This document shows positions 1 through 7,530 of a stretch of DNA of 7,530 bases, piece after piece. The DNA comes from Candidatus Vampirococcus lugosii (GTDB lineage Bacteria; Patescibacteriota; Gracilibacteria; Absconditabacterales; Absconditicoccaceae). The position numbers and the translations under genes are program-made. Every line of letters starts with the position of its first letter. The first letter of the stretch is position 1. The DNA lies in assembly GCF_018420025.1 (NCBI RefSeq), contig NZ_JAEDAM010000078.1:1-7530 (forward strand), written 5' to 3'. The notes beneath the pieces were generated by a model. It did no database searches. It was given only the letters and a program-made list of their open reading frames with translations, and was not told the DNA's origin.

Positions 1-1
1 T

Positions 2-589
2 AATATCTATGAATTCATATCTGAATACATAGATATTAATTGAAAACCAGTAGCTGTTTATCTTGATCGTCATTCTGCATACAAAATCAATCATCCAAAA
101 GATCAATTTGATAAAGAAATGCTTAGCAGATTACAAGTTGCTTGTAATATATTATGAATTGAAGTTATTTATTCTAAGTGTCCTGAATGAAAATGAAGAG
201 TTGAAAATTCATTTAAAACACATCAAGACAGACTTATAAAAGAGATGAGACTTGCTTGAATTAAAAACATTGTTTCTGCTAATAAATTCTTATATGATTA
301 CTACATACCTAAACATAATAATAAGTTCTCTGTTGAAGCTAAAGTGTCTTGAAACTTCCATGTTCCTATCACTAAATATGAAAAAGAAAATCTTGAATGG
401 TTCTTTGCTAAAAAAGAGAAAAGAATTATTAAAAGAGATTGAACTGTTAATTACATGAATACAAAATATCAAATACATAAAAAACAATATTTACCTGCTT
501 GAAAGCAAGTAAATGTTGTTACATCTATGTTGGGGAAACTTAAAATATTTTCTTGAAATGTAGAATTATTATTTGATATTATTAATTAA
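2..589 (+). CDS. rve/DDE transposase, C-terminal fragment (5' end outside window); table 25
   Basis: With TGA=Gly it reads NIYEFISEYIDINGKPVAVYLDRHSAYKINHPKDQFDKEMLSRLQVACNILGIEVIYSKCPEGKGRVENSFKTHQDRLIKEMRLAGIKN...LFDIIN*. The LDRHS and KGRVEN motifs are the second Asp and the Glu of an integrase-core DDE triad. Stop TAA at 587..589. Confidence 0.85.
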
Positions 590-601
590 TTATTTATATT
601 A

Positions 602-650
602 TTACTGACATTTCTATTTTTGTTTTTTTACTGACATTTTAAAGTTGCTG
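602..650. repeat. IS right terminal inverted repeat (IRR) containing two TTACTGACATTT direct repeats
   Basis: TTACTGACATTT occurs at 602..613 and 628..639. The reverse complement of 606..650 aligns with 3326..3369, with shared blocks CAGCAAAGTT/AAAGTTGCTG, TGTCAGTA and AAATAGAAATGTCA. Confidence 0.6.
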
Positions 651-718
651 TTACAAGATTTATTTTGGGTGAATTTGTCAAATTTTTGGGAGTGAAGAAG
701 TTTATTTTGGACAAATCA

Positions 719-1597
719 TTACAAAATAATATCTTTCATATATCAATTTTTCTCTAAAACTTTTTTTAATTCAGCTCTATTAGCTAAATTAAATCATACT
801 TGGCTCCAAATTTTATGTTTTTCTTCTATTTGATTTTGTATTTTATTAAAAATTTTAACAAAATTTATTGAAATTTGCTCAAAACTTAATCACTCTCTTT
901 TACTATCTATATAATTTTTTTCAAAACAATCTACCAAATTGATACTTTTTCAGTCAACTGAAATATTAAGTAGTTGTTGTCTAGTATTTGCATATTTTAT
1001 GTTTTCTCATTGTCTTATACCATCCCAAAAACTATCTCTAACAATTACGGGTGCTATTATTTCTTTTAGATAATCATGTCAAACATCTGATAATTCTCAT
1101 ATTTTACTATAAACATTTTTAATTTGTTTTTCTCGTATAATATGACAATATTCATGCAAAAATATGTCTAAATAATTATTTTCTTGATTTTTGAATACTT
1201 CAGTTACAATAGAAAACTTTATAATATCACTACCAAATGTAGAACTTGGTAAAAAACTTGGATATATATGGACAGTCTCGTTATTTATTTGGTAGTCCAT
1301 AGTTTTACAAAAACCCTCCACGATTTTTTGTTTGTTTCAATTAAACAATTTTTTCCATTTTTTAATTATATCATCTATCTTGTATTTATATTCAAAATAT
1401 TTTTGTTCCAAAAAGTTATCAACTAATTTTTCTCATTCTGCTTGAGATATATTCTCTATATTAGCCAAACTATAATAACAAAAAAATATTGATTTACGAA
1501 CATGTCATCGTTTGTGGATATGTTTTTTTTCAAAGAGAAATTTTTTGAAAGATATTTTATCTTTTTCTACATCGCATTTTATTTTAAAATTTAGCAT
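719..1597 (-). CDS. 292-aa hypothetical protein with an HExxH motif (putative Zn-metallopeptidase, candidate leader peptidase); table 25
   Basis: Open only with TGA=Gly (10 in-frame TGA codons). ATG at 1597 lies 9 nt after the upstream TAATAA stop; stop TAA at 719..721. Sequence MLNFKIKCDVEKDKISFKKF...NYLDIFLHEYCHIIREKQIKNVYSKIGELSDVGHDYLKEII...KNGYMKDIIL. HEYCH is at 1142..1156. I do not recognise the family, so the function rests on the motif and context only. Confidence 0.7.
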
Positions 1598-1606
1598 GAG
1601 TATTTA

Positions 1607-2989
1607 TTATAATATTTCAATTATCTTTTTTTTATAAAGCATAAATAAAAATTTATTTAATTTTTTTTCATCAATTCAGATCTCTGAAGAAAGTTCAGAT
1701 AAAGAAAAATAATCTTTTTTTAACAATCTTTTTAACAAATATCATGAATCTCTAGTTACCATAGTATTAGCATATCACAAAGACAGAATATATCAATCAT
1801 TTTCTTCTCTGAAAATAATATTAGGTGATACTCTTAACTTTTCTCAAAGAAGAGAAGTAACCTTAATTTTATTTTGTTCCAACAATAGATGTATTTTTTT
1901 TCTATTAACTGGTTTTGCATAAGGATCCATTTGATTTATTTCTCATGTTGTTCACTTTGCTTCCATTCTACATCATCATGTACATTTTGATAAATATTCA
2001 CAAGACACACATGTTTCTGGAATCAAATCTCAATTTCTCCATTCCTGCATATTTTGCCATATTTCATCTAAATTTTTTTGAAATATATTTCAATAAGACA
2101 TGTCAGCATGAGTACATGGTCTAACTTCTCAGTCTGCTCATATTATTGAGGATGTTATTCAAGCAGTACACTTATGTCTAGAAAATTCTGCAAACTCAGG
2201 TATCTCTGACAATAAACACAAAGGATAACATTCTAATATGTCTACATACAATCATTGTTCTTTTTTTAGTCTTACTAAATCAGAAAGACTCAAAATAACA
2301 TCATCCTTATCAACAGCATAATCCATAAAGTTTGGTATGTTTGCTGGCCAAGATCATTTTGTAGCGAAAAAACTTTTAACTCATAGTTCTTTCAAAAAAT
2401 TACCTGTTTCATAAACATGGTCAATATTTAATTTTGTTAGGACCATATTAACTCAAATTTTAATATCCTCATCTAAAGCCGTTTTTATTCAAGAAATAAC
2501 TTTATTAAAATTTCATTCTTTTCAAGTAATTTGATCATGAACTTTTGAATCATAAGAAGTTAATGATGTTAAAATAGACCTCAATCATTTACTTTTTAGC
2601 TCTTGTGCTAATTTTTTTGTTAATAACATAACATTTGAGTTTAAACTGCAGGAGATTCAATGTTCAGAAAGTTGTTCTATTAAGAACAGAACGACATCTT
2701 TTTTGATTAGTGGTTCTCATCAAGTTATTCAAACATGGAAAACTCATGCTTTTTTCAATTGCTCAATAATAATTTTTGCTTTTTCAATATCAAGATGAAT
2801 ATGATTTCTATCAGTAATTTGCCAAGAATTGTAGCAATGTATACAGCTAACATTACAACTACTAGTTACTTCTATCTGCATACTTAATGGTGCAGATAGT
2901 TGTCTAGCAAAGTTTCATTTTAATGAATTTACCTTATTTGATTTTTCTCAGTTGCTACATATTTCATTACAATTATCACATCTATTCAT
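1607..2989 (-). CDS. Radical SAM/SPASM-domain peptide maturase (460 aa) with a C-terminal PqqD-like (RRE-type) domain; table 25
   Basis: Open only with TGA=Gly (29 in-frame TGA codons). MNRCDNCNEICSNGEKS...MQIEVTSSCNVSCIHCYN gives CX3CX2C at 2834..2857. VGITGGEPLIKK gives GGEPL at 2708..2722, with both Gly encoded by TGA. The SPASM signature is CTAGITSSIIGADGEVRPC (CX12GX4C) plus CVSCEYLSKCTGGC (CX2CX5CX3C, 1970..2011). The C-terminal ~80 aa read LRVSPNIIFREENDGYILSLGYANTMVTRDSGYLLKRLLKKDYFSLSELSSEIGIDEKKLNKFLFMLYKKKIIEIL. Stop is TAATAA. Confidence 0.93.
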
Positions 2990-3033
2990 GTTAATGTAAT
3001 ATATATTTAGATAAATACTGCATTGTGTTTAAA

Positions 3034-3060
3034 TCTCCAGCCAGACATTCTGACTGGAGA
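3034..3060 (-). terminator. Stem-loop between precursor and maturase genes (candidate attenuator or partial intrinsic terminator)
   Basis: Minus-strand RNA UCUCCAGUCAG-AAUGU-CUGGCUGGAGA forms an 11-bp stem (one G-U pair) with a 5-nt loop. Only a short UUU follows. It starts 9 nt after the precursor stop and ends 44 nt before the maturase ATG. Confidence 0.5.
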
Positions 3061-3069
3061 TGTTGAAGT

Positions 3070-3207
3070 TTATGAATCGCATGGTGTATTGTCGCAATCA
3101 CATGCATCACACAAATCGCAATTATCACAGTAATCACAACTGTCACATGATTCTGCAACAACATCACCATCACCAAACAAACTAACAAAACCGAGATCCA
3201 GACTCAT
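3070..3207 (-). CDS. 45-aa Cys/Asp-repeat RiPP precursor peptide (8 Cys, each followed by Asp)
   Basis: MSLDLGFVSLFGDGDVVAESCDSCDYCDNCDLCDACDCDNTPCDS*. ATG at 3207 lies 5 nt after a perfect AAGGAGG. It sits directly upstream of, and on the same strand as, the rSAM/SPASM gene. Stop TAA at 3070..3072. It contains no TGA codon, so it is visible in the standard-code track as the 3' part of ORF 3070..3297. Confidence 0.8.
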   Translation of the reverse strand: MSLDLGFVSLFGDGDVVAESCDSCDYCDNCDLCDACDCDNTPCDS

Positions 3208-3212
3208 AAATA

Positions 3213-3219
3213 CCTCCTT
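3213..3219 (-). promoter_or_regulatory. Shine-Dalgarno site AAGGAGG for the precursor peptide
   Basis: Plus-strand CCTCCTT is AAGGAGG on the minus strand, with a 5-nt spacer (TATTT) to the ATG at 3207. Confidence 0.65.
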
Positions 3220-3276
3220 TTTTTTATAAAGAATTAATGTTACAATAATTACAACCATTGCAACTACTGTAATATT

Positions 3277-3304
3277 CTTATAAAGATCTTTTTTCAAAAA
3301 TCAA
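3277..3304 (-). promoter_or_regulatory. Candidate sigma70-like promoter for the cassette (TTGATT-16 nt-TATAAG)
   Basis: The minus strand reads TTGATT (3304..3299), 16 nt, then TATAAG (3282..3277), about 70 nt upstream of the precursor ATG and about 22 nt from the IS end. In DNA this AT-rich, such matches arise easily by chance. Confidence 0.2.
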
Positions 3305-3325
3305 CACTTTTTGGCTCTATTGTGC

Positions 3326-3371
3326 CAGCAAAGTTAAATTGTCAGTACTAGGCACAAATAGAAATGTCAAT
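3326..3371. repeat. IS left terminal inverted repeat (IRL)
   Basis: CAGCAAAGTTAAATTGTCAGTACTAGGCACAAATAGAAATGTCAAT. The two (A)AAT(T)GTCA(G/A)T motifs at 3336..3347 and 3362..3371 mirror the two TTACTGACATTT repeats of the IRR. Confidence 0.6.
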
Positions 3372-3407
3372 ATAATAATATTGTTTTATTTTTTAAAAAA
3401 CAATATT

Positions 3408-4551
3408 ATGAATTTACTTTATACTGACAAACAAATGAACAAAGTCCGTATTATCCAAAAACTTATCGATAATAAGATAAACATCAAAGATGTTTGTGAT
3501 GCTTTAAGTTGTTCTGAAAGAACTGTTTATAGATATAAATCTACTCTTATCAATGAATGACCTCCTGGATTCATTCATTGATTAAAATGAAAAGTTTCCA
3601 ATCACAATCCATATTCCTCAAAACATCAAGACTTAGATAGAATAATAACTCAAAATAAGTTTATTTGATTTTGACCCACATTTTTATCTGAAAAGCTTCT
3701 TGAGATCTATTGATTCTATATCAATAAAGAATCTCTTAGAAAAAGAATGATTAGATTGTGATTATGGTTACCAAAACCAAAAAAGACTGTAGTTAAAAGG
3801 AAAAAAAGAGAAAGAAGTAAATCATTTTGATTACTTATTCAAATTGATTGATCTTAATCATGATTGGTTTGAAGATTGATCTGAATATTGTCTCATAAAT
3901 GCTGTTGATGATGCTACCTGAAAAACTACTCATGCTAAATTTACTACTTGAGAGTCCCTTATTAATATCTATGAATTCATATCTGAATACATAGATATTA
4001 ATTGAAAACCAGTAGCTGTTTATCTTGATCGTCATTCTGCATACAAAATCAATCATCCAAAAGATCAATTTGATAAAGAAATGCTTAGCAGATTACAAGT
4101 TGCTTGTAATATATTATGAATTGAAGTTATTTATTCTAAGTGTCCTGAATGAAAATGAAGAGTTGAAAATTCATTTAAAACACATCAAGACAGACTTATA
4201 AAAGAGATGAGACTTGCTTGAATTAAAAACATTGTTTCTGCTAATAAATTCTTATATGATTACTACATACCTAAACATAATAATAAGTTCTCTGTTGAAG
4301 CTAAAGTGTCTTGAAACTTCCATGTTCCTATCACTAAATATGAAAAAGAAAATCTTGAATGGTTCTTTGCTAAAAAAGAGAAAAGAATTATTAAAAGAGA
4401 TTGAACTGTTAATTACATGAATACAAAATATCAAATACATAAAAAACAATATTTACCTGCTTGAAAGCAAGTAAATGTTGTTACATCTATGTTGGGGAAA
4501 CTTAAAATATTTTCTTGAAATGTAGAATTATTATTTGATATTATTAATTAA
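3408..4551 (+). CDS. HTH + rve/DDE transposase (~380 aa) in two frames; needs a +1 shift at 3855 (possible pseudogene or recoding); table 25
   Basis: Frame 1, 3408..3854: MNLLYTDKQMNKVRIIQKLIDNKINIKDVCDALSCSERTVYRYKSTLINEGPPGFIHGLKGKVSNH...FIGFGPTFLSEKLLEIYGFYINKESLRKRMIRLGLW...SFGLLIQIDGS, then TAA. Frame 2, 3856..4551: NHDWFEDGSEYCLINAVDDATGKTTHAKF...YLDRHSAY...CPEGKGRVENSFKTHQDRLIKEMRLAGI...*. There are 21 in-frame TGA=Gly codons. The joined sequence QIDGS|NHDWFED matches the conserved first-Asp region of this transposase type. Confidence 0.85.
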
Positions 4552-4563
4552 TTATTTATATTA

Positions 4564-4612
4564 TTACTGACATTTCTATTTTTGTTTTTTTACTGACATT
4601 TTAAAGTTGCTG
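4564..4612. repeat. IS right terminal inverted repeat (IRR), copy 2 of 602..650
   Basis: Identical to 602..650. TTACTGACATTT occurs at 4564..4575 and 4590..4601, and the repeat ends in AAAGTTGCTG. Confidence 0.6.
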
Positions 4613-4680
4613 TTACAAGATTTATTTTGGGTGAATTTGTCAAATTTTTGGGAGTGAAGAAGTTTATTTTGGACAAATCA

Positions 4681-5559
4681 TTACAAAATAATATCTTTCA
4701 TATATCAATTTTTCTCTAAAACTTTTTTTAATTCAGCTCTATTAGCTAAATTAAATCATACTTGGCTCCAAATTTTATGTTTTTCTTCTATTTGATTTTG
4801 TATTTTATTAAAAATTTTAACAAAATTTATTGAAATTTGCTCAAAACTTAATCACTCTCTTTTACTATCTATATAATTTTTTTCAAAACAATCTACCAAA
4901 TTGATACTTTTTCAGTCAACTGAAATATTAAGTAGTTGTTGTCTAGTATTTGCATATTTTATGTTTTCTCATTGTCTTATACCATCCCAAAAACTATCTC
5001 TAACAATTACGGGTGCTATTATTTCTTTTAGATAATCATGTCAAACATCTGATAATTCTCATATTTTACTATAAACATTTTTAATTTGTTTTTCTCGTAT
5101 AATATGACAATATTCATGCAAAAATATGTCTAAATAATTATTTTCTTGATTTTTGAATACTTCAGTTACAATAGAAAACTTTATAATATCACTACCAAAT
5201 GTAGAACTTGGTAAAAAACTTGGATATATATGGACAGTCTCGTTATTTATTTGGTAGTCCATAGTTTTACAAAAACCCTCCACGATTTTTTGTTTGTTTC
5301 AATTAAACAATTTTTTCCATTTTTTAATTATATCATCTATCTTGTATTTATATTCAAAATATTTTTGTTCCAAAAAGTTATCAACTAATTTTTCTCATTC
5401 TGCTTGAGATATATTCTCTATATTAGCCAAACTATAATAACAAAAAAATATTGATTTACGAACATGTCATCGTTTGTGGATATGTTTTTTTTCAAAGAGA
5501 AATTTTTTGAAAGATATTTTATCTTTTTCTACATCGCATTTTATTTTAAAATTTAGCAT
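4681..5559 (-). CDS. HExxH-motif hypothetical protein, second identical copy
   Basis: Identical to 719..1597 shifted by 3962. Confidence 0.7.
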
Positions 5560-5568
5560 GAGTATTTA

Positions 5569-6951
5569 TTATAATATTTCAATTATCTTTTTTTTATAAA
5601 GCATAAATAAAAATTTATTTAATTTTTTTTCATCAATTCAGATCTCTGAAGAAAGTTCAGATAAAGAAAAATAATCTTTTTTTAACAATCTTTTTAACAA
5701 ATATCATGAATCTCTAGTTACCATAGTATTAGCATATCACAAAGACAGAATATATCAATCATTTTCTTCTCTGAAAATAATATTAGGTGATACTCTTAAC
5801 TTTTCTCAAAGAAGAGAAGTAACCTTAATTTTATTTTGTTCCAACAATAGATGTATTTTTTTTCTATTAACTGGTTTTGCATAAGGATCCATTTGATTTA
5901 TTTCTCATGTTGTTCACTTTGCTTCCATTCTACATCATCATGTACATTTTGATAAATATTCACAAGACACACATGTTTCTGGAATCAAATCTCAATTTCT
6001 CCATTCCTGCATATTTTGCCATATTTCATCTAAATTTTTTTGAAATATATTTCAATAAGACATGTCAGCATGAGTACATGGTCTAACTTCTCAGTCTGCT
6101 CATATTATTGAGGATGTTATTCAAGCAGTACACTTATGTCTAGAAAATTCTGCAAACTCAGGTATCTCTGACAATAAACACAAAGGATAACATTCTAATA
6201 TGTCTACATACAATCATTGTTCTTTTTTTAGTCTTACTAAATCAGAAAGACTCAAAATAACATCATCCTTATCAACAGCATAATCCATAAAGTTTGGTAT
6301 GTTTGCTGGCCAAGATCATTTTGTAGCGAAAAAACTTTTAACTCATAGTTCTTTCAAAAAATTACCTGTTTCATAAACATGGTCAATATTTAATTTTGTT
6401 AGGACCATATTAACTCAAATTTTAATATCCTCATCTAAAGCCGTTTTTATTCAAGAAATAACTTTATTAAAATTTCATTCTTTTCAAGTAATTTGATCAT
6501 GAACTTTTGAATCATAAGAAGTTAATGATGTTAAAATAGACCTCAATCATTTACTTTTTAGCTCTTGTGCTAATTTTTTTGTTAATAACATAACATTTGA
6601 GTTTAAACTGCAGGAGATTCAATGTTCAGAAAGTTGTTCTATTAAGAACAGAACGACATCTTTTTTGATTAGTGGTTCTCATCAAGTTATTCAAACATGG
6701 AAAACTCATGCTTTTTTCAATTGCTCAATAATAATTTTTGCTTTTTCAATATCAAGATGAATATGATTTCTATCAGTAATTTGCCAAGAATTGTAGCAAT
6801 GTATACAGCTAACATTACAACTACTAGTTACTTCTATCTGCATACTTAATGGTGCAGATAGTTGTCTAGCAAAGTTTCATTTTAATGAATTTACCTTATT
6901 TGATTTTTCTCAGTTGCTACATATTTCATTACAATTATCACATCTATTCAT
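5569..6951 (-). CDS. Radical SAM/SPASM peptide maturase with C-terminal PqqD-like domain, second identical copy
   Basis: Identical to 1607..2989 shifted by 3962. Confidence 0.93.
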
Positions 6952-6995
6952 GTTAATGTAATATATATTTAGATAAATACTGCATTGTGTTTAAA

Positions 6996-7022
6996 TCTCC
7001 AGCCAGACATTCTGACTGGAGA
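6996..7022 (-). terminator. Precursor-maturase intergenic stem-loop, second copy
   Basis: Identical to 3034..3060 shifted by 3962. Confidence 0.5.
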
Positions 7023-7031
7023 TGTTGAAGT

Positions 7032-7169
7032 TTATGAATCGCATGGTGTATTGTCGCAATCACATGCATCACACAAATCGCAATTATCACAGTAATCACA
7101 ACTGTCACATGATTCTGCAACAACATCACCATCACCAAACAAACTAACAAAACCGAGATCCAGACTCAT
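7032..7169 (-). CDS. 45-aa Cys/Asp-repeat RiPP precursor peptide, second identical copy
   Basis: Identical to 3070..3207 shifted by 3962. The AAGGAGG site is at 7175..7181. Confidence 0.8.
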   Translation of the reverse strand: MSLDLGFVSLFGDGDVVAESCDSCDYCDNCDLCDACDCDNTPCDS

Positions 7170-7287
7170 AAATACCTCCTTTTTTTTATAAAGAATTAAT
7201 GTTACAATAATTACAACCATTGCAACTACTGTAATATTCTTATAAAGATCTTTTTTCAAAAATCAACACTTTTTGGCTCTATTGTGC

Positions 7288-7530
7288 CAGCAAAGTTAAA
7301 TTGTCAGTACTAGGCACAAATAGAAATGTCAATATAATAATATTGTTTTATTTTTTAAAAAACAATATTATGAATTTACTTTATACTGACAAACAAATGA
7401 ACAAAGTCCGTATTATCCAAAAACTTATCGATAATAAGATAAACATCAAAGATGTTTGTGATGCTTTAAGTTGTTCTGAAAGAACTGTTTATAGATATAA
7501 ATCTACTCTTATCAATGAATGACCTCCTGG
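7288..7530 (+). mobile_element. Left (5') part of a third IS copy, truncated by the window end
   Basis: Identical to 3326..3568 (IRL plus the transposase N-terminus). Confidence 0.7.
7370..7530 (+). CDS. Transposase N-terminal (HTH) fragment; 3' end outside window
   Basis: Identical to 3408..3568: MNLLYTDKQMNKVRIIQKLIDNKINIKDVCDALSCSERTVYRYKSTLINEGPP... Confidence 0.85.

What the first reader, a model, noticed from the sequence alone, without database searches (positions are those of the whole stretch)
1..7530. TGA is a glycine codon here (translation table 25), so standard ORF calling misses every long gene
Under the standard code the longest ORF is 77 aa. Reading TGA as Gly produces three long, motif-complete proteins. 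TGA falls on positions that are invariant glycines in unrelated families. Examples are the radical SAM GGEPL motif (tga tga gaa cca cta, 2708..2722), the SPASM CTGGC (tgt aca tga tga tgt), and the transposase motifs QIDGS, GFGP and HGLKGK. By my count about 60 of 66 Gly codons in the three large genes are TGA. Trp is still encoded by TGG (HDWFE, EIWQNMQEW), which argues against table 4. TGA=Gly is known only from Gracilibacteria (BD1-5) and Absconditabacteria (SR1), which places this DNA in an episymbiotic CPR lineage or one of its mobile elements.
Basis: partly seen in the sequence, partly recalled or inferred. Interest (0 to 1): 0.6.

Follow-up and report, generated by a model that had tools for sequence, protein, structure and literature searches.

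The report
Known UGA=glycine code, Vampirococcus contig

Summary
The longest standard-code ORF is 77 aa. With TGA read as sense, long genes appear with 60 in-frame TGA, no in-frame TAA/TAG, and TAA as every stop. In a codon-by-codon test against standard-code homologues, 37 of 38 testable codons keep their standard meaning. Only TGA differs: Gly +96.7 bits, Trp -252.7. TGG stays Trp.

The rSAM protein translated with TGA=Gly is identical to NCBI MBS8122356.1/WP_213349794.1 from Candidatus Vampirococcus lugosii, on a 7530-bp contig. The genome paper states UGA=Gly and used Prodigal table 25. The finding is correct but already known.

- The window is 1.9 exact copies of a 3962-bp unit, so it holds four distinct genes, not more.
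- The transposase is not intact. One extra A at the catalytic aspartate splits it.
- Both CGA codons sit where orthologues have TGG. This fits the published prediction that Absconditabacteria also read CGA/CGG as Trp, which table 25 and the NCBI proteins do not reflect.
- The unit is a 1299-bp ISNCY element plus a conserved cassette: a 45-aa Cys-Asp-repeat peptide, a radical SAM/SPASM enzyme and an HExxH protein.

The parts
1..656 (+). 3' part of the IS (partial copy), carrying the C-terminal 195 codons of the transposase (2..586, stop 587..589). Identical to 3963..4618.
   Evidence: Exact period 3962; NCBI 'transposase, partial' 195 aa, MBS8122355.1.
719..1597 (-). orfA copy 1: 292-aa HExxH protein (HEYCH at 1142..1156) with 10 TGA=Gly codons and 2 CGA codons.
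   Evidence: H148, E149, H152, E179 and N204 are invariant in 51/51 family members. NCBI MBS8122359.1/WP_213349793.1 'hypothetical protein'.
1133..1135 (-). CGA codon at orfA residue 155 (HEYCHII-CGA-E), probably Trp. Second copy at 5095..5097.
   Evidence: Orthologues have TGG (L002, L015) or CGA (L006) here. Standard-code homologues have F24/L16/W5/R2 of 48.
1508..1510 (-). CGA codon at orfA residue 30 (K-CGA-TGA-H), probably Trp. Second copy at 5470..5472.
   Evidence: Orthologues have TGG in L002, L006, L015 and L016, and TAT in L017.
1607..2989 (-). Radical SAM/SPASM enzyme copy 1, 460 aa, with 29 TGA and 1 GGT. CxxxCxxC at 2834..2857, GGEPL at 2708..2722, SPASM CTGGC at 1970..1984.
   Evidence: Identical to NCBI MBS8122356.1/WP_213349794.1.
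3033..3061 (-). 13-bp-stem hairpin between the precursor gene and the rSAM gene.
   Evidence: The MFE fold of 2990..3072 (minus strand) is -23.4 kcal/mol and is dominated by this stem. Its function is inferred only.
3070..3207 (-). Precursor peptide copy 1, 45 aa: MSLDLGFVSLFGDGDVVAESCDSCDYCDNCDLCDACDCDNTPCDS. AGGAGG lies upstream. All 3 Gly codons are GGT; there is no TGA.
   Evidence: RefSeq WP_213349795.1 (45 aa). Orthologous CD-repeat peptides lie upstream of rSAM homologues in L002, L006 and L016, with a fragment in L017.
3320..4618 (+). Complete ISNCY-family insertion sequence, 1299 bp, with terminal inverted repeats at 3320..3347 and 4591..4618.
   Evidence: Top inverted pair I1, 28 nt, 82% complementary. 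Homology to the intact relative L001 ends at 4618. Logan contigs L013 and L014 end exactly at 4618, and L012 overlaps them by 30 nt.
3408..3857 (+). Transposase N-terminal ORF, 149 aa (HTH, HGLKGK, GFGP, QIDGS), ending at a TAA created by the frameshift.
   Evidence: NCBI MBS8122362.1 'putative transposase' 149 aa.
3855..3857 (+). Frameshift site. The window reads TCT TAA T CAT. The intact relative reads TCT TAT CAT (S-Y-H). One extra A.
   Evidence: Alignment with L001. The same base is present in Logan assemblies of two other runs.
3844..4551 (+). Transposase C-terminal ORF, 235 aa, in the +1 frame (HDWFE at 3859..3873 and the rest of the DDE domain).
   Evidence: NCBI MBS8122363.1/WP_213349797.1. 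The fused protein scores 321.6 bits on NF033594 against a cut-off of 250.
3549..3582 (.). Palindrome whose centre coincides with the contig end (7530 = 3568 + 3962).
3961..4002 (.). Palindrome (19-nt arms, 95% complementary) that contains the point corresponding to the contig start (position 1 = 3963).
   Evidence: (I4).
4681..5559 (-). orfA copy 2, identical to copy 1.
   Evidence: MBS8122364.1.
5569..6951 (-). rSAM/SPASM copy 2, identical to copy 1.
   Evidence: MBS8122360.1.
7032..7169 (-). Precursor peptide copy 2, identical to copy 1.
7282..7530 (+). 5' part of the IS (partial copy) with the first ~54 codons of the transposase (from 7370). Identical to 3320..3568.
   Evidence: NCBI 54-aa partial MBS8122358.1.

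Best explanation
The window is the 7530-bp contig of Candidatus Vampirococcus lugosii, an epibiotic predator in Absconditabacteria/SR1. Its translation system reads UGA as glycine (NCBI table 25), keeps UGG as Trp, and uses UAA as the stop for every gene here. Standard ORF calling therefore breaks every gene. Shown here: the meaning of TGA and TGG, the stops used, and the identity of the source. Taken from the literature on the lineage: a tRNA-Gly with anticodon UCA decodes UGA and release factor 2 is absent. Probable: this organism also reads CGA as Trp, as predicted for Absconditabacteria. The content of the window is one 3962-bp unit present 1.9 times. The unit is a 1299-bp ISNCY insertion sequence, whose transposase is broken by a 1-base insertion, next to a conserved three-gene peptide-maturation cassette. 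The cassette holds a Cys-Asp-repeat precursor, a radical SAM/SPASM enzyme and an HExxH...E putative zinc protease. By inference, the enzyme makes Cys-to-Asp thioether cross-links and the protease removes the leader.
For: Code. No ORF exceeds 77 aa in table 11. There are 60 in-frame TGA, 0 in-frame TAA/TAG and four TAA stops. Gly scores above X and above or equal to Trp in Pfam and NCBIfam. In the column-profile inference, 37/38 codons are standard and TGA is Gly at +96.7 bits, next best Asn at -137.5, Trp at -252.7, with Gly the best fit in each of three families. Invariant-Gly columns, such as transposase positions 148 (70/70), 141, 199 and 250 (69/70) and rSAM positions 167, 287, 300 and 339 (24/24), are TGA in the window. 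TGG falls on conserved Trp.

Source. P0121 is identical to the window's rSAM translated with TGA=Gly, carries the name Candidatus Vampirococcus lugosii, and sits on a 7530-bp contig. The taxonomy is Candidatus Absconditibacteriota. PMC8080830 states UGA=Gly and Prodigal table 25.

CGA. Both window CGA codons align with TGG in orthologues. In relatives L006 and L016, 3/3 and 3/4 rSAM CGA codons lie on conserved Trp columns. PMC8629427 predicts CGA/CGG to Trp in Absconditabacteria.

Structure. Exact period of 3962. IS ends. ISNCY model at 321.6 bits against a cut-off of 250. The cassette is conserved in chromosomal contexts in L002-L006 and L015-L017.
Against: No tRNA gene lies in the window, and prfB cannot be assessed from 7.5 kb, so the decoding machinery is taken from the literature. 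The CGA=Trp call for this organism rests on only two codons. One has a single usable distant-homologue column, where Trp scores 3.8 bits against 3.3 for Phe. The chemistry of the rSAM enzyme and the protease role of orfA are inferences. The enzyme is below the cut-off of every NCBIfam equivalog, including PapB (71 bits against 340), and orfA matches no curated family.
Confidence: 0.96

Rival explanations
1. TGA encodes tryptophan (table 4, as in Mycoplasma and some insect endosymbionts).
For: Table 4 opens the same ORFs as table 25. Public catalogues translated close relatives this way, for example P0001 with 6.3% W and 0.5% G.
Against: Trp scores below or equal to a masked X in every HMM. Standard-code homologues have Trp in 7 of 2082 cells at TGA columns, and Trp scores -252.7 bits. 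Code-4 translations give implausible compositions.
Confidence: 0.01
2. The code is standard and the region is non-coding or a field of pseudogenes. Alternatively, the TGAs are selenocysteine or read-through sites.
For: No standard ORF exceeds 77 aa. One gene, the transposase, really is disrupted.
Against: TGA occurs 60 times in frame while TAA/TAG never do, although they are abundant off-frame. Full-length matches to three families have Gly at those columns, and every amino acid other than Gly scores -137 bits or lower. The cassette is conserved with the same codon use in other genomes.
Confidence: 0.005
3. On the contig's architecture: the 3962-bp unit (IS plus cassette) is a real extrachromosomal circle or a tandem amplification. 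Multiple-displacement amplification then over-amplified it, and the contig reflects real head-to-tail joins.
For: Both IS ends join to the two ends of the same cassette, and the repeat is exact (3568/3568). The contig layout A(3568)-B(394)-A, with ends in palindromes, is what a path walking twice round a cyclic assembly graph gives. The DNA was MDA/MALBAC amplified, which favours small circles. A 99.6%-identical strain lacks the IS at this site.
Against: A cassette flanked by two direct IS copies (a composite-transposon layout) gives the same two junctions. Logan unitigs break exactly at the right end of the IS (4618) and at 3390/3419, so IS sequence is joined to other flanks in the reads. No replication gene is present, and nothing matches known plasmids or phages. 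In relatives the cassette is chromosomal.
Confidence: 0.35
4. The break in the transposase is a programmed +1 ribosomal frameshift at UCU-UAA-U and not a mutation.
For: The extra A is reproducible in two further read sets. The 0-frame stop lies directly at the shift site, as in prfB. Skipping one base restores QIDGS-N-HDWFE.
Against: Intact 380-aa relatives lack the extra base (TCT TAT CAT; P0001, P0240-P0242). The site lies inside the catalytic core next to the first DDE aspartate, not between domains. After a +1 slip the Ser tRNA would sit on CUU, which pairs poorly (inference). To my knowledge no frameshifting is described for ISNCY/IS1202 elements.
Confidence: 0.05

Closest known systems
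[quoted passage not shown] 2013, Rinke et al. 2013, as cited in PMC8080830 and PMC8629427)
   Same: UGA is read as Gly, UGG as Trp, and UAA as stop. The genome is low in GC (25.9% here). The source organism is an Absconditabacterium already annotated with this table.
   Different: Nothing differs for UGA. Table 25 leaves CGA as Arg, whereas both CGA codons here sit on Trp positions.
Absconditabacterial code inferred by Codetta (Shulgina & Eddy 2021, PMC8629427): UGA=Gly plus CGA and CGG=Trp
   Same: CGA is rare (2 of 1177 codons), AGA is the dominant Arg codon (32), and CGT stays on Arg/Lys columns. CGA lies at Trp positions in the window and in relatives.
   Different: The term 'Vampirococcus' does not occur in that paper. 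Here the evidence is two codons and no tRNA. There is no CGG in the window's genes.
Table 4 (UGA=Trp; Mycoplasmatales, Entomoplasmatales, some endosymbionts)
   Same: UGA is a sense codon in a low-GC genome, and the same ORFs open.
   Different: The amino acid is Gly, not Trp.
ISNCY-family insertion sequences (NCBIfam NF033594)
   Same: A single HTH plus DDE transposase of about 380 aa scores 321.6 bits against a cut-off of 250. It has 28-nt terminal inverted repeats and is about 1.3 kb long. Many relatives sit on ~1.3-kb stand-alone contigs.
   Different: This copy's transposase carries a frameshift. No target-site duplication is visible, because both flanks are the two ends of one cassette.
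PapB/PapA (freyrasin) ranthipeptide system: a radical SAM/SPASM enzyme linking Cys sulfur to the Asp beta-carbon in six C-X3-D motifs (PMC9413430)
   Same: A short precursor has a Cys/Asp-rich core (8 Cys, each followed by Asp; five overlapping C-X3-D motifs) and is encoded next to a radical SAM/SPASM enzyme.
   Different: The enzyme is not a PapB-family member (NF047865 71 bits against a cut-off of 340). The best partial hits are generic SPASM enzymes such as NirJ2, AhbD and PqqE. The cassette adds an HExxH protein. No chemistry has been tested.

Membership tests
Genetic code 25 (UGA=Gly) | In-frame UGA in otherwise intact, conserved genes | tested here: met
   60 in-frame TGA in four genes and 0 in-frame TAA/TAG.
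Genetic code 25 (UGA=Gly) | UGA positions correspond to conserved Gly in standard-code homologues | tested here: met
   Gly in 951/2082 cells against a 5% background. Gly +96.7 bits, all other residues -137 bits or lower, and Gly is best in three families separately. Invariant-Gly columns.
Genetic code 25 (UGA=Gly) | UGG remains Trp; UAA/UAG remain stops | tested here: met
   TGG is inferred as Trp at +16.7 bits over 10 columns. All four genes end in TAA. TAG is not used as a stop here, so its meaning is untested.
Genetic code 25 (UGA=Gly) | tRNA-Gly with anticodon UCA in the genome | not testable with these tools
   No tRNA in the window and none with that anticodon in the fetched loci. The V. 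lugosii genome was not found in the genome collection.
Genetic code 25 (UGA=Gly) | Loss of release factor 2 (prfB) | not testable with these tools
   Needs the whole genome. The source paper does not mention release factors.
Genetic code 25 (UGA=Gly) | Organism belongs to Absconditabacteria or Gracilibacteria | tested here: met
   Exact protein identity to Candidatus Vampirococcus lugosii records on a 7530-bp contig. Phylum Candidatus Absconditibacteriota.
Genetic code 4 (UGA=Trp) | UGA positions correspond to conserved Trp | tested here: not met
   Trp in 7/2082 cells and -252.7 bits. HMM scores with Trp are at or below those with X.
Absconditabacterial CGA/CGG=Trp reassignment (Codetta prediction) | CGA/CGG codons fall on conserved Trp positions | tested here: inconclusive
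   2 of 2 window CGA codons align with TGG in the closest orthologues. That is only two codons, and distant homologues give F/L/W at one column and mostly gaps at the other. The signal is clear in relatives L006 and L016.
Absconditabacterial CGA/CGG=Trp reassignment (Codetta prediction) | tRNA(UCG) with Trp identity elements | not testable with these tools
   No tRNA in the window.
ISNCY family insertion sequence | Transposase matches the family model above its cut-off | tested here: met
   NF033594 at 321.6 bits against a cut-off of 250 for the frame-corrected, TGA=Gly protein. Pfam rve (PF00665) was not reached at E<=0.01.
ISNCY family insertion sequence | Terminal inverted repeats bounding the element | tested here: met
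   3320..3347 and 4591..4618, 28 nt, 82% complementary. The right end is confirmed by unitig breaks and by the end of homology to L001.
ISNCY family insertion sequence | Intact transposase ORF (autonomous element) | tested here: not met
   A one-base insertion gives TAA at 3855..3857, reproducible in independent assemblies.
ISNCY family insertion sequence | Target-site duplication | tested here: inconclusive
   The flanks (...GGCTCTA | IS | GATTTAT...) are not direct repeats. In a circle, tandem or composite layout none is expected.
Radical SAM / SPASM peptide maturases | CxxxCxxC radical SAM cluster motif plus a SPASM auxiliary-cluster domain | tested here: met
   PF04055 at 86.6 bits and PF13186 at 34.8 bits. 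CNVSCIHC at 2834..2857 and CTGGC at 1970..1984.
PapB-family ranthipeptide maturase (NF047865) | Score above the family cut-off | tested here: not met
   71.4 bits against a cut-off of 340.
PapB-family ranthipeptide maturase (NF047865) | Cys-to-Asp non-alpha thioether cross-links in the product | not testable with these tools
   The precursor has five C-X3-D motifs and eight CD dipeptides. The chemistry needs mass spectrometry or NMR.
SCIFF peptide system (six Cys in forty-five residues) | Precursor and maturase match the curated SCIFF models | tested here: not met
   The 45-aa peptide matches no NCBIfam or Pfam model. No SCIFF maturase model is among the 25 best of the 87 NCBIfam matches shown for the rSAM.

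The most novel reading that the evidence does not exclude
The 3962-bp unit is a real circular or tandemly amplified translocatable unit in a CPR predator. In this reading, a defective ISNCY element, mobilised in trans, carries a previously undescribed Cys-Asp-repeat peptide cassette (rSAM/SPASM plus an HExxH...E protease family with no curated model). V. lugosii also reads CGA as Trp, so its public proteome is mistranslated at every CGA. In addition, the precursor genes' complete avoidance of TGA (0 of 15 Gly codons, against roughly three-quarters (72 of 95) in the three complete neighbouring enzyme genes counted) would indicate that UGA=Gly decoding is costly for highly expressed genes.
Probability: 0.25. 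Interest if true: 0.45.

Novelty: already known. Interest (0 to 1): 0.15.

Why it matters
For the scan, this case shows that the first-stage reader can recover an alternative genetic code from raw sequence alone. Biologically it adds nothing to the code itself, because UGA=Gly in Absconditabacteria has been known since 2013 and was used to annotate this very contig.

Three practical points remain. First, large protein catalogues translated the close relatives with code 4, so they hold proteins with Trp where Gly belongs (about 6% W and 0.5% G). Homology searches and family models built from them inherit that error. Second, table 25 annotation probably still mistranslates CGA as Arg instead of Trp in this organism. 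Third, the contig is 1.9 turns of one unit, so gene counts from this assembly are inflated by duplicates. The small peptide-maturation cassette next to an IS is a modest lead for natural-product work on CPR bacteria.

Tried and rejected
- One search used a mis-sliced transposase construct (wrong frame after the junction, spurious TAA codons). Its numbers are discarded and replaced.
NCBIfam NF033594 was used instead.
I had to use the code-4 database copy P0152.
- The single scan of GTDB species genomes returned only one locus (L011) and not V. lugosii. The source genome's tRNA-Gly(UCA), tRNA(UCG) and prfB therefore could not be examined.
- There are no tRNAs in the window. Rfam gave only a sub-threshold miRNA hit of 24 bits against a gathering score of 90, which I treat as chance. 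The only tRNA in related loci is Ser(GGA).
- No DNA similarity to plasmids or phages.
- Promoter-like sites are no more frequent than in shuffles (33 against 32.8), so no promoter is claimed.
- Programmed frameshifting was considered for the transposase and judged unlikely (see the rival explanations).
- I briefly read the UniRef 'n=3' label as evidence for further frameshifted IS copies. I dropped this because, to my knowledge, UniRef100 merges sub-fragments, and all listed accessions are on this contig.
- Structure prediction of orfA was not attempted. Only code-4 mistranslations could be submitted, with an alignment too shallow to trust.

Full report
**1. The observation**

Under the bacterial code, the longest start-to-stop ORF in the 7530-base window is 77 aa, and the longest stop-to-stop stretch is 95 aa. 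If TGA is read as sense, stretches of 473, 294, 252 and 194 aa appear. The three large genes hold 60 TGA and 6 GGN, and a small peptide gene adds 3 GGT. The genes have no in-frame TAA or TAG, although the large genes carry 13-35 per off-frame, and all four end in TAA. Every quoted motif is at the place stated, including GGEPL at 2708..2722 and CTGGC at 1970..1984 on the minus strand.

**2. What TGA means**

I masked TGA as X to avoid circularity.

- *HMM scores for Gly / X / Trp.* Radical_SAM 86.6 / 69.2 / 71.1 and SPASM 34.8 / 20.8 / no hit. ISNCY transposase NF033594 scores 321.6 / 274.4 / 254.7. Trp is no better than a blank and is sometimes worse.
- *Transposase columns.* Seventy distant, standard-code homologues have Gly at the TGA columns, for example 70/70 at position 148 and 69/70 at positions 141, 199 and 250. 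They have Trp at the TGG columns, 70/70 at position 153.
- *rSAM columns.* Twenty-four standard-code homologues give Gly in 365 of 644 cells at TGA columns and Trp in 1.
- *Codon-by-codon inference.* Using column profiles for all three families, 37 of 38 codons with at least five usable columns take their standard meaning. The only exception is TGA, which is Gly at +96.7 bits, with Asn next at -137.5 and Trp at -252.7. Gly wins in each family separately. One search was a faulty first run and is discarded.

So TGA is Gly, TGG is Trp and TAA is stop.

**3. Where the DNA comes from**

The rSAM search returned P0121, named by NCBI 'radical SAM/SPASM domain-containing protein [Candidatus Vampirococcus lugosii]', on a contig of exactly 7530 bp. 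It is identical over all 460 residues to the TGA=Gly translation of the window.

An exact look-up shows that every gene here is already in GenBank/RefSeq:
- rSAM: MBS8122356.1 and MBS8122360.1.
- The 292-aa protein: MBS8122359.1 and MBS8122364.1.
- The peptide: WP_213349795.1 (45 aa). GenBank calls a 75-aa version.
- The transposase: fragments of 149, 235, 195 and 54 aa.

The species belongs to Candidatus Absconditibacteriota. The genome paper (PMC8080830) says the UGA stop codon is reassigned to glycine and that genes were called with Prodigal table 25. The DNA came from MDA and MALBAC amplification of micromanipulated consortia and was assembled with SPAdes 3.6.

**4.

In the close, recoded relatives, R appears at invariant Trp columns of both the transposase and the rSAM enzyme. 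Reading their DNA shows that the codon is CGA. In L006 all three CGA codons of the rSAM gene lie at conserved Trp columns, and in L016 three of four do.

The window has only two CGA codons, both in the 292-aa gene.
- At residue 30 (1508..1510), four orthologues have TGG and one has TAT.
- At residue 155 (1133..1135), two orthologues have TGG and one has CGA.
- Standard-code homologues have F/L/W at the second site in 45 of 48 sequences and R in 2.
- CGT stays on Arg/Lys columns, and AGA is the main Arg codon.

This matches the Codetta prediction that Absconditabacteria read CGA and CGG as Trp in addition to UGA=Gly (PMC8629427). Table 25 does not encode this, so the NCBI protein carries Arg at both sites. 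For this organism the evidence is two codons, so I call it probable, not shown.

**5. How common TGA is**

TGA makes up 60 of 69 Gly codons here, but the share depends on the gene.
- About 54% over 16 genes of the related contig L002.
- 50% in the PheRS gene of a 99.6%-identical strain (L007).
- 86-91% in the rSAM genes of the window and L002 and in the transposases, though only 43% in L006's rSAM gene.
- 0 of 15 in the four orthologous precursor peptides that contain Gly.

**6. What the window contains**

The sequence has an exact period of 3962 bases, with 3568 of 3568 overlapping positions identical. It therefore holds one unit 1.9 times.

*The insertion sequence.* The unit starts with a 1299-bp ISNCY-family insertion sequence at 3320..4618. 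It has 28-nt terminal inverted repeats. Its right end is confirmed by the end of homology to an intact relative and by the exact end of two independent Logan contigs. Its transposase is split. The intact relative reads TCT TAT CAT (S-Y-H), while the window reads TCT TAA T CAT. One extra A creates a stop beside the first catalytic aspartate. The same base is present in assemblies of two other read sets, so it is not a SPAdes artefact and is unlikely to be an amplification error. This copy cannot make full-length transposase without a +1 shift, which I consider unlikely.

*The cassette on the minus strand.*
- A 45-aa peptide (3207..3070) preceded by AGGAGG. Its core, CDSCDYCDNCDLCDACDCDNTPCD, has eight Cys, each followed by Asp, and five overlapping C-X3-D motifs.
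- A 13-bp-stem hairpin (3033..3061).
- A 460-aa radical SAM/SPASM enzyme (2989..1607).
- A 292-aa protein (1597..719) whose family has invariant HExxH, a Glu 27 residues after the second His, and an Asn in 51 of 51 members, but matches no curated model.

The three-gene order is conserved in other recoded contigs, where it sits among housekeeping genes without an IS.

*Inferred function.* By analogy with PapB, which links Cys to Asp in C-X3-D motifs (PMC9413430), I infer thioether cross-linking of the peptide and leader removal by the HExxH protein. The enzyme is not a PapB-family member (71 bits against 340), and no chemistry has been tested.

**7. Circle, tandem array or assembler loop**

The contig has the layout A(3568)-B(394)-A. 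Both of its ends fall in hairpin-forming palindromes, at 3549..3582 and 3961..4002. This is what a path walking almost twice round a cyclic assembly graph would give.

The cycle could have three origins:
- A real small circle favoured by MDA.
- A tandem duplication.
- A cassette flanked by two direct IS copies.

Logan unitigs break exactly at the right end of the IS and at 3390/3419, so IS sequence is joined to other flanks in the reads. A 99.6%-identical strain has the 292-aa gene next to a PheRS gene, with only the last 28 codons of the rSAM gene left and no IS. No replication gene is present, and nothing matches known plasmids or phages. I cannot decide between these without read mapping, and I give a real circle or tandem array about 0.35.

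**8. Verdict**

The phenomenon is already known and already applied to this record, so the interest is low. The useful additions are:
- the probable CGA=Trp reading in this organism;
- the frameshifted transposase;
- the 1.9-fold repeat of the contig;
- the small conserved peptide-maturation cassette;
- the observation that public catalogues hold code-4 mistranslations of the relatives.

Noticed in passing
window 1..7530: The window is an exact 3962-bp period repeated 1.9 times (3568/3568 identical). The contig ends fall in palindromes at 3549..3582 and 3961..4002, which suggests an assembler path round a cyclic graph. NCBI annotates both copies of each gene as separate proteins.
   Followed up: partly
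window 1508..1510 and 1133..1135 (copies at 5470..5472 and 5095..5097): Both CGA codons lie where the closest orthologues have TGG (Trp). This fits the published CGA/CGG=Trp prediction for Absconditabacteria. The NCBI proteins (table 25) carry Arg there.
   Followed up: yes
window 3855..3857: A one-base (A) insertion relative to an intact 380-aa relative creates a TAA and a +1 frame change beside the first DDE aspartate of the ISNCY transposase. It is reproduced in Logan assemblies of SRR13241708 and SRR13241709.
   Followed up: yes
window 3070..3207; L002 5719..5913; L006 about 200..340; L016 upstream of 479: The Cys-Asp-repeat precursor genes use no TGA at all for Gly (0 of 15 codons in four orthologues). 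The complete adjacent rSAM genes counted (window, L002, L006) use TGA for 43-97% of Gly, 72 of 95 codons overall. TGA may be avoided in short, highly expressed genes.
   Followed up: partly
L007 1723..1946 and L008 (99.6% identical to window 663..1691): In a near-identical strain, the HExxH gene lies next to a PheRS-like gene. Only the last 28 codons of the rSAM gene remain, and there is no IS downstream. This is a deletion of the peptide and enzyme genes, or a second partial copy of the locus.
   Followed up: partly
P0001-P0050 and P0122-P0126 (database proteins); L001, L002, L006: Close relatives in the public protein collection were translated with code 4. They show about 6% Trp and 0.5% Gly, with Trp at invariant Gly positions. 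This is a systematic mistranslation that affects searches with these entries.
   Followed up: partly
L011 (CAYMVT010000073.1, 3888 bp): A MAG contig labelled 'uncultured Candidatus Peribacteria bacterium' carries the same IS family. It has many in-frame TGA codons in all its long ORFs (24% GC), so it also uses TGA as sense. The taxonomic label or the assumed code may be wrong.
   Followed up: partly
window 719..1597; family P0152-P0222: The 292-aa protein belongs to a family of about 70 representatives with invariant HExxH, a Glu 27 residues after the second His, and an Asn, which is a gluzincin-like signature. It matches no Pfam or NCBIfam model. UniRef labels it DUF2268, but the only such hit seen here was E=0.05 for one relative.
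   Followed up: partly
window 3033..3061 (minus strand): A 13-bp-stem hairpin lies between the precursor gene and the rSAM gene. It may be an attenuator or a processing site setting the precursor-to-enzyme ratio. No T-run follows it.
   Followed up: no
window 1607..1910 (rSAM residues about 360..460): The rSAM enzyme has a roughly 100-residue C-terminal extension after the SPASM domain that matched no model. From its sequence pattern it might be a peptide-recognition (winged-helix) domain. This was not tested.
   Followed up: no
L006 and L016 (Logan SRR14710925, SRR14710895): In these relatives the TGA share of Gly is lower (about 43-53% in L006) and CGA is used at conserved Trp sites of the rSAM enzyme (3/3 and 3/4). 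This shows lineage-to-lineage differences in how far the two reassignments have gone.
   Followed up: partly
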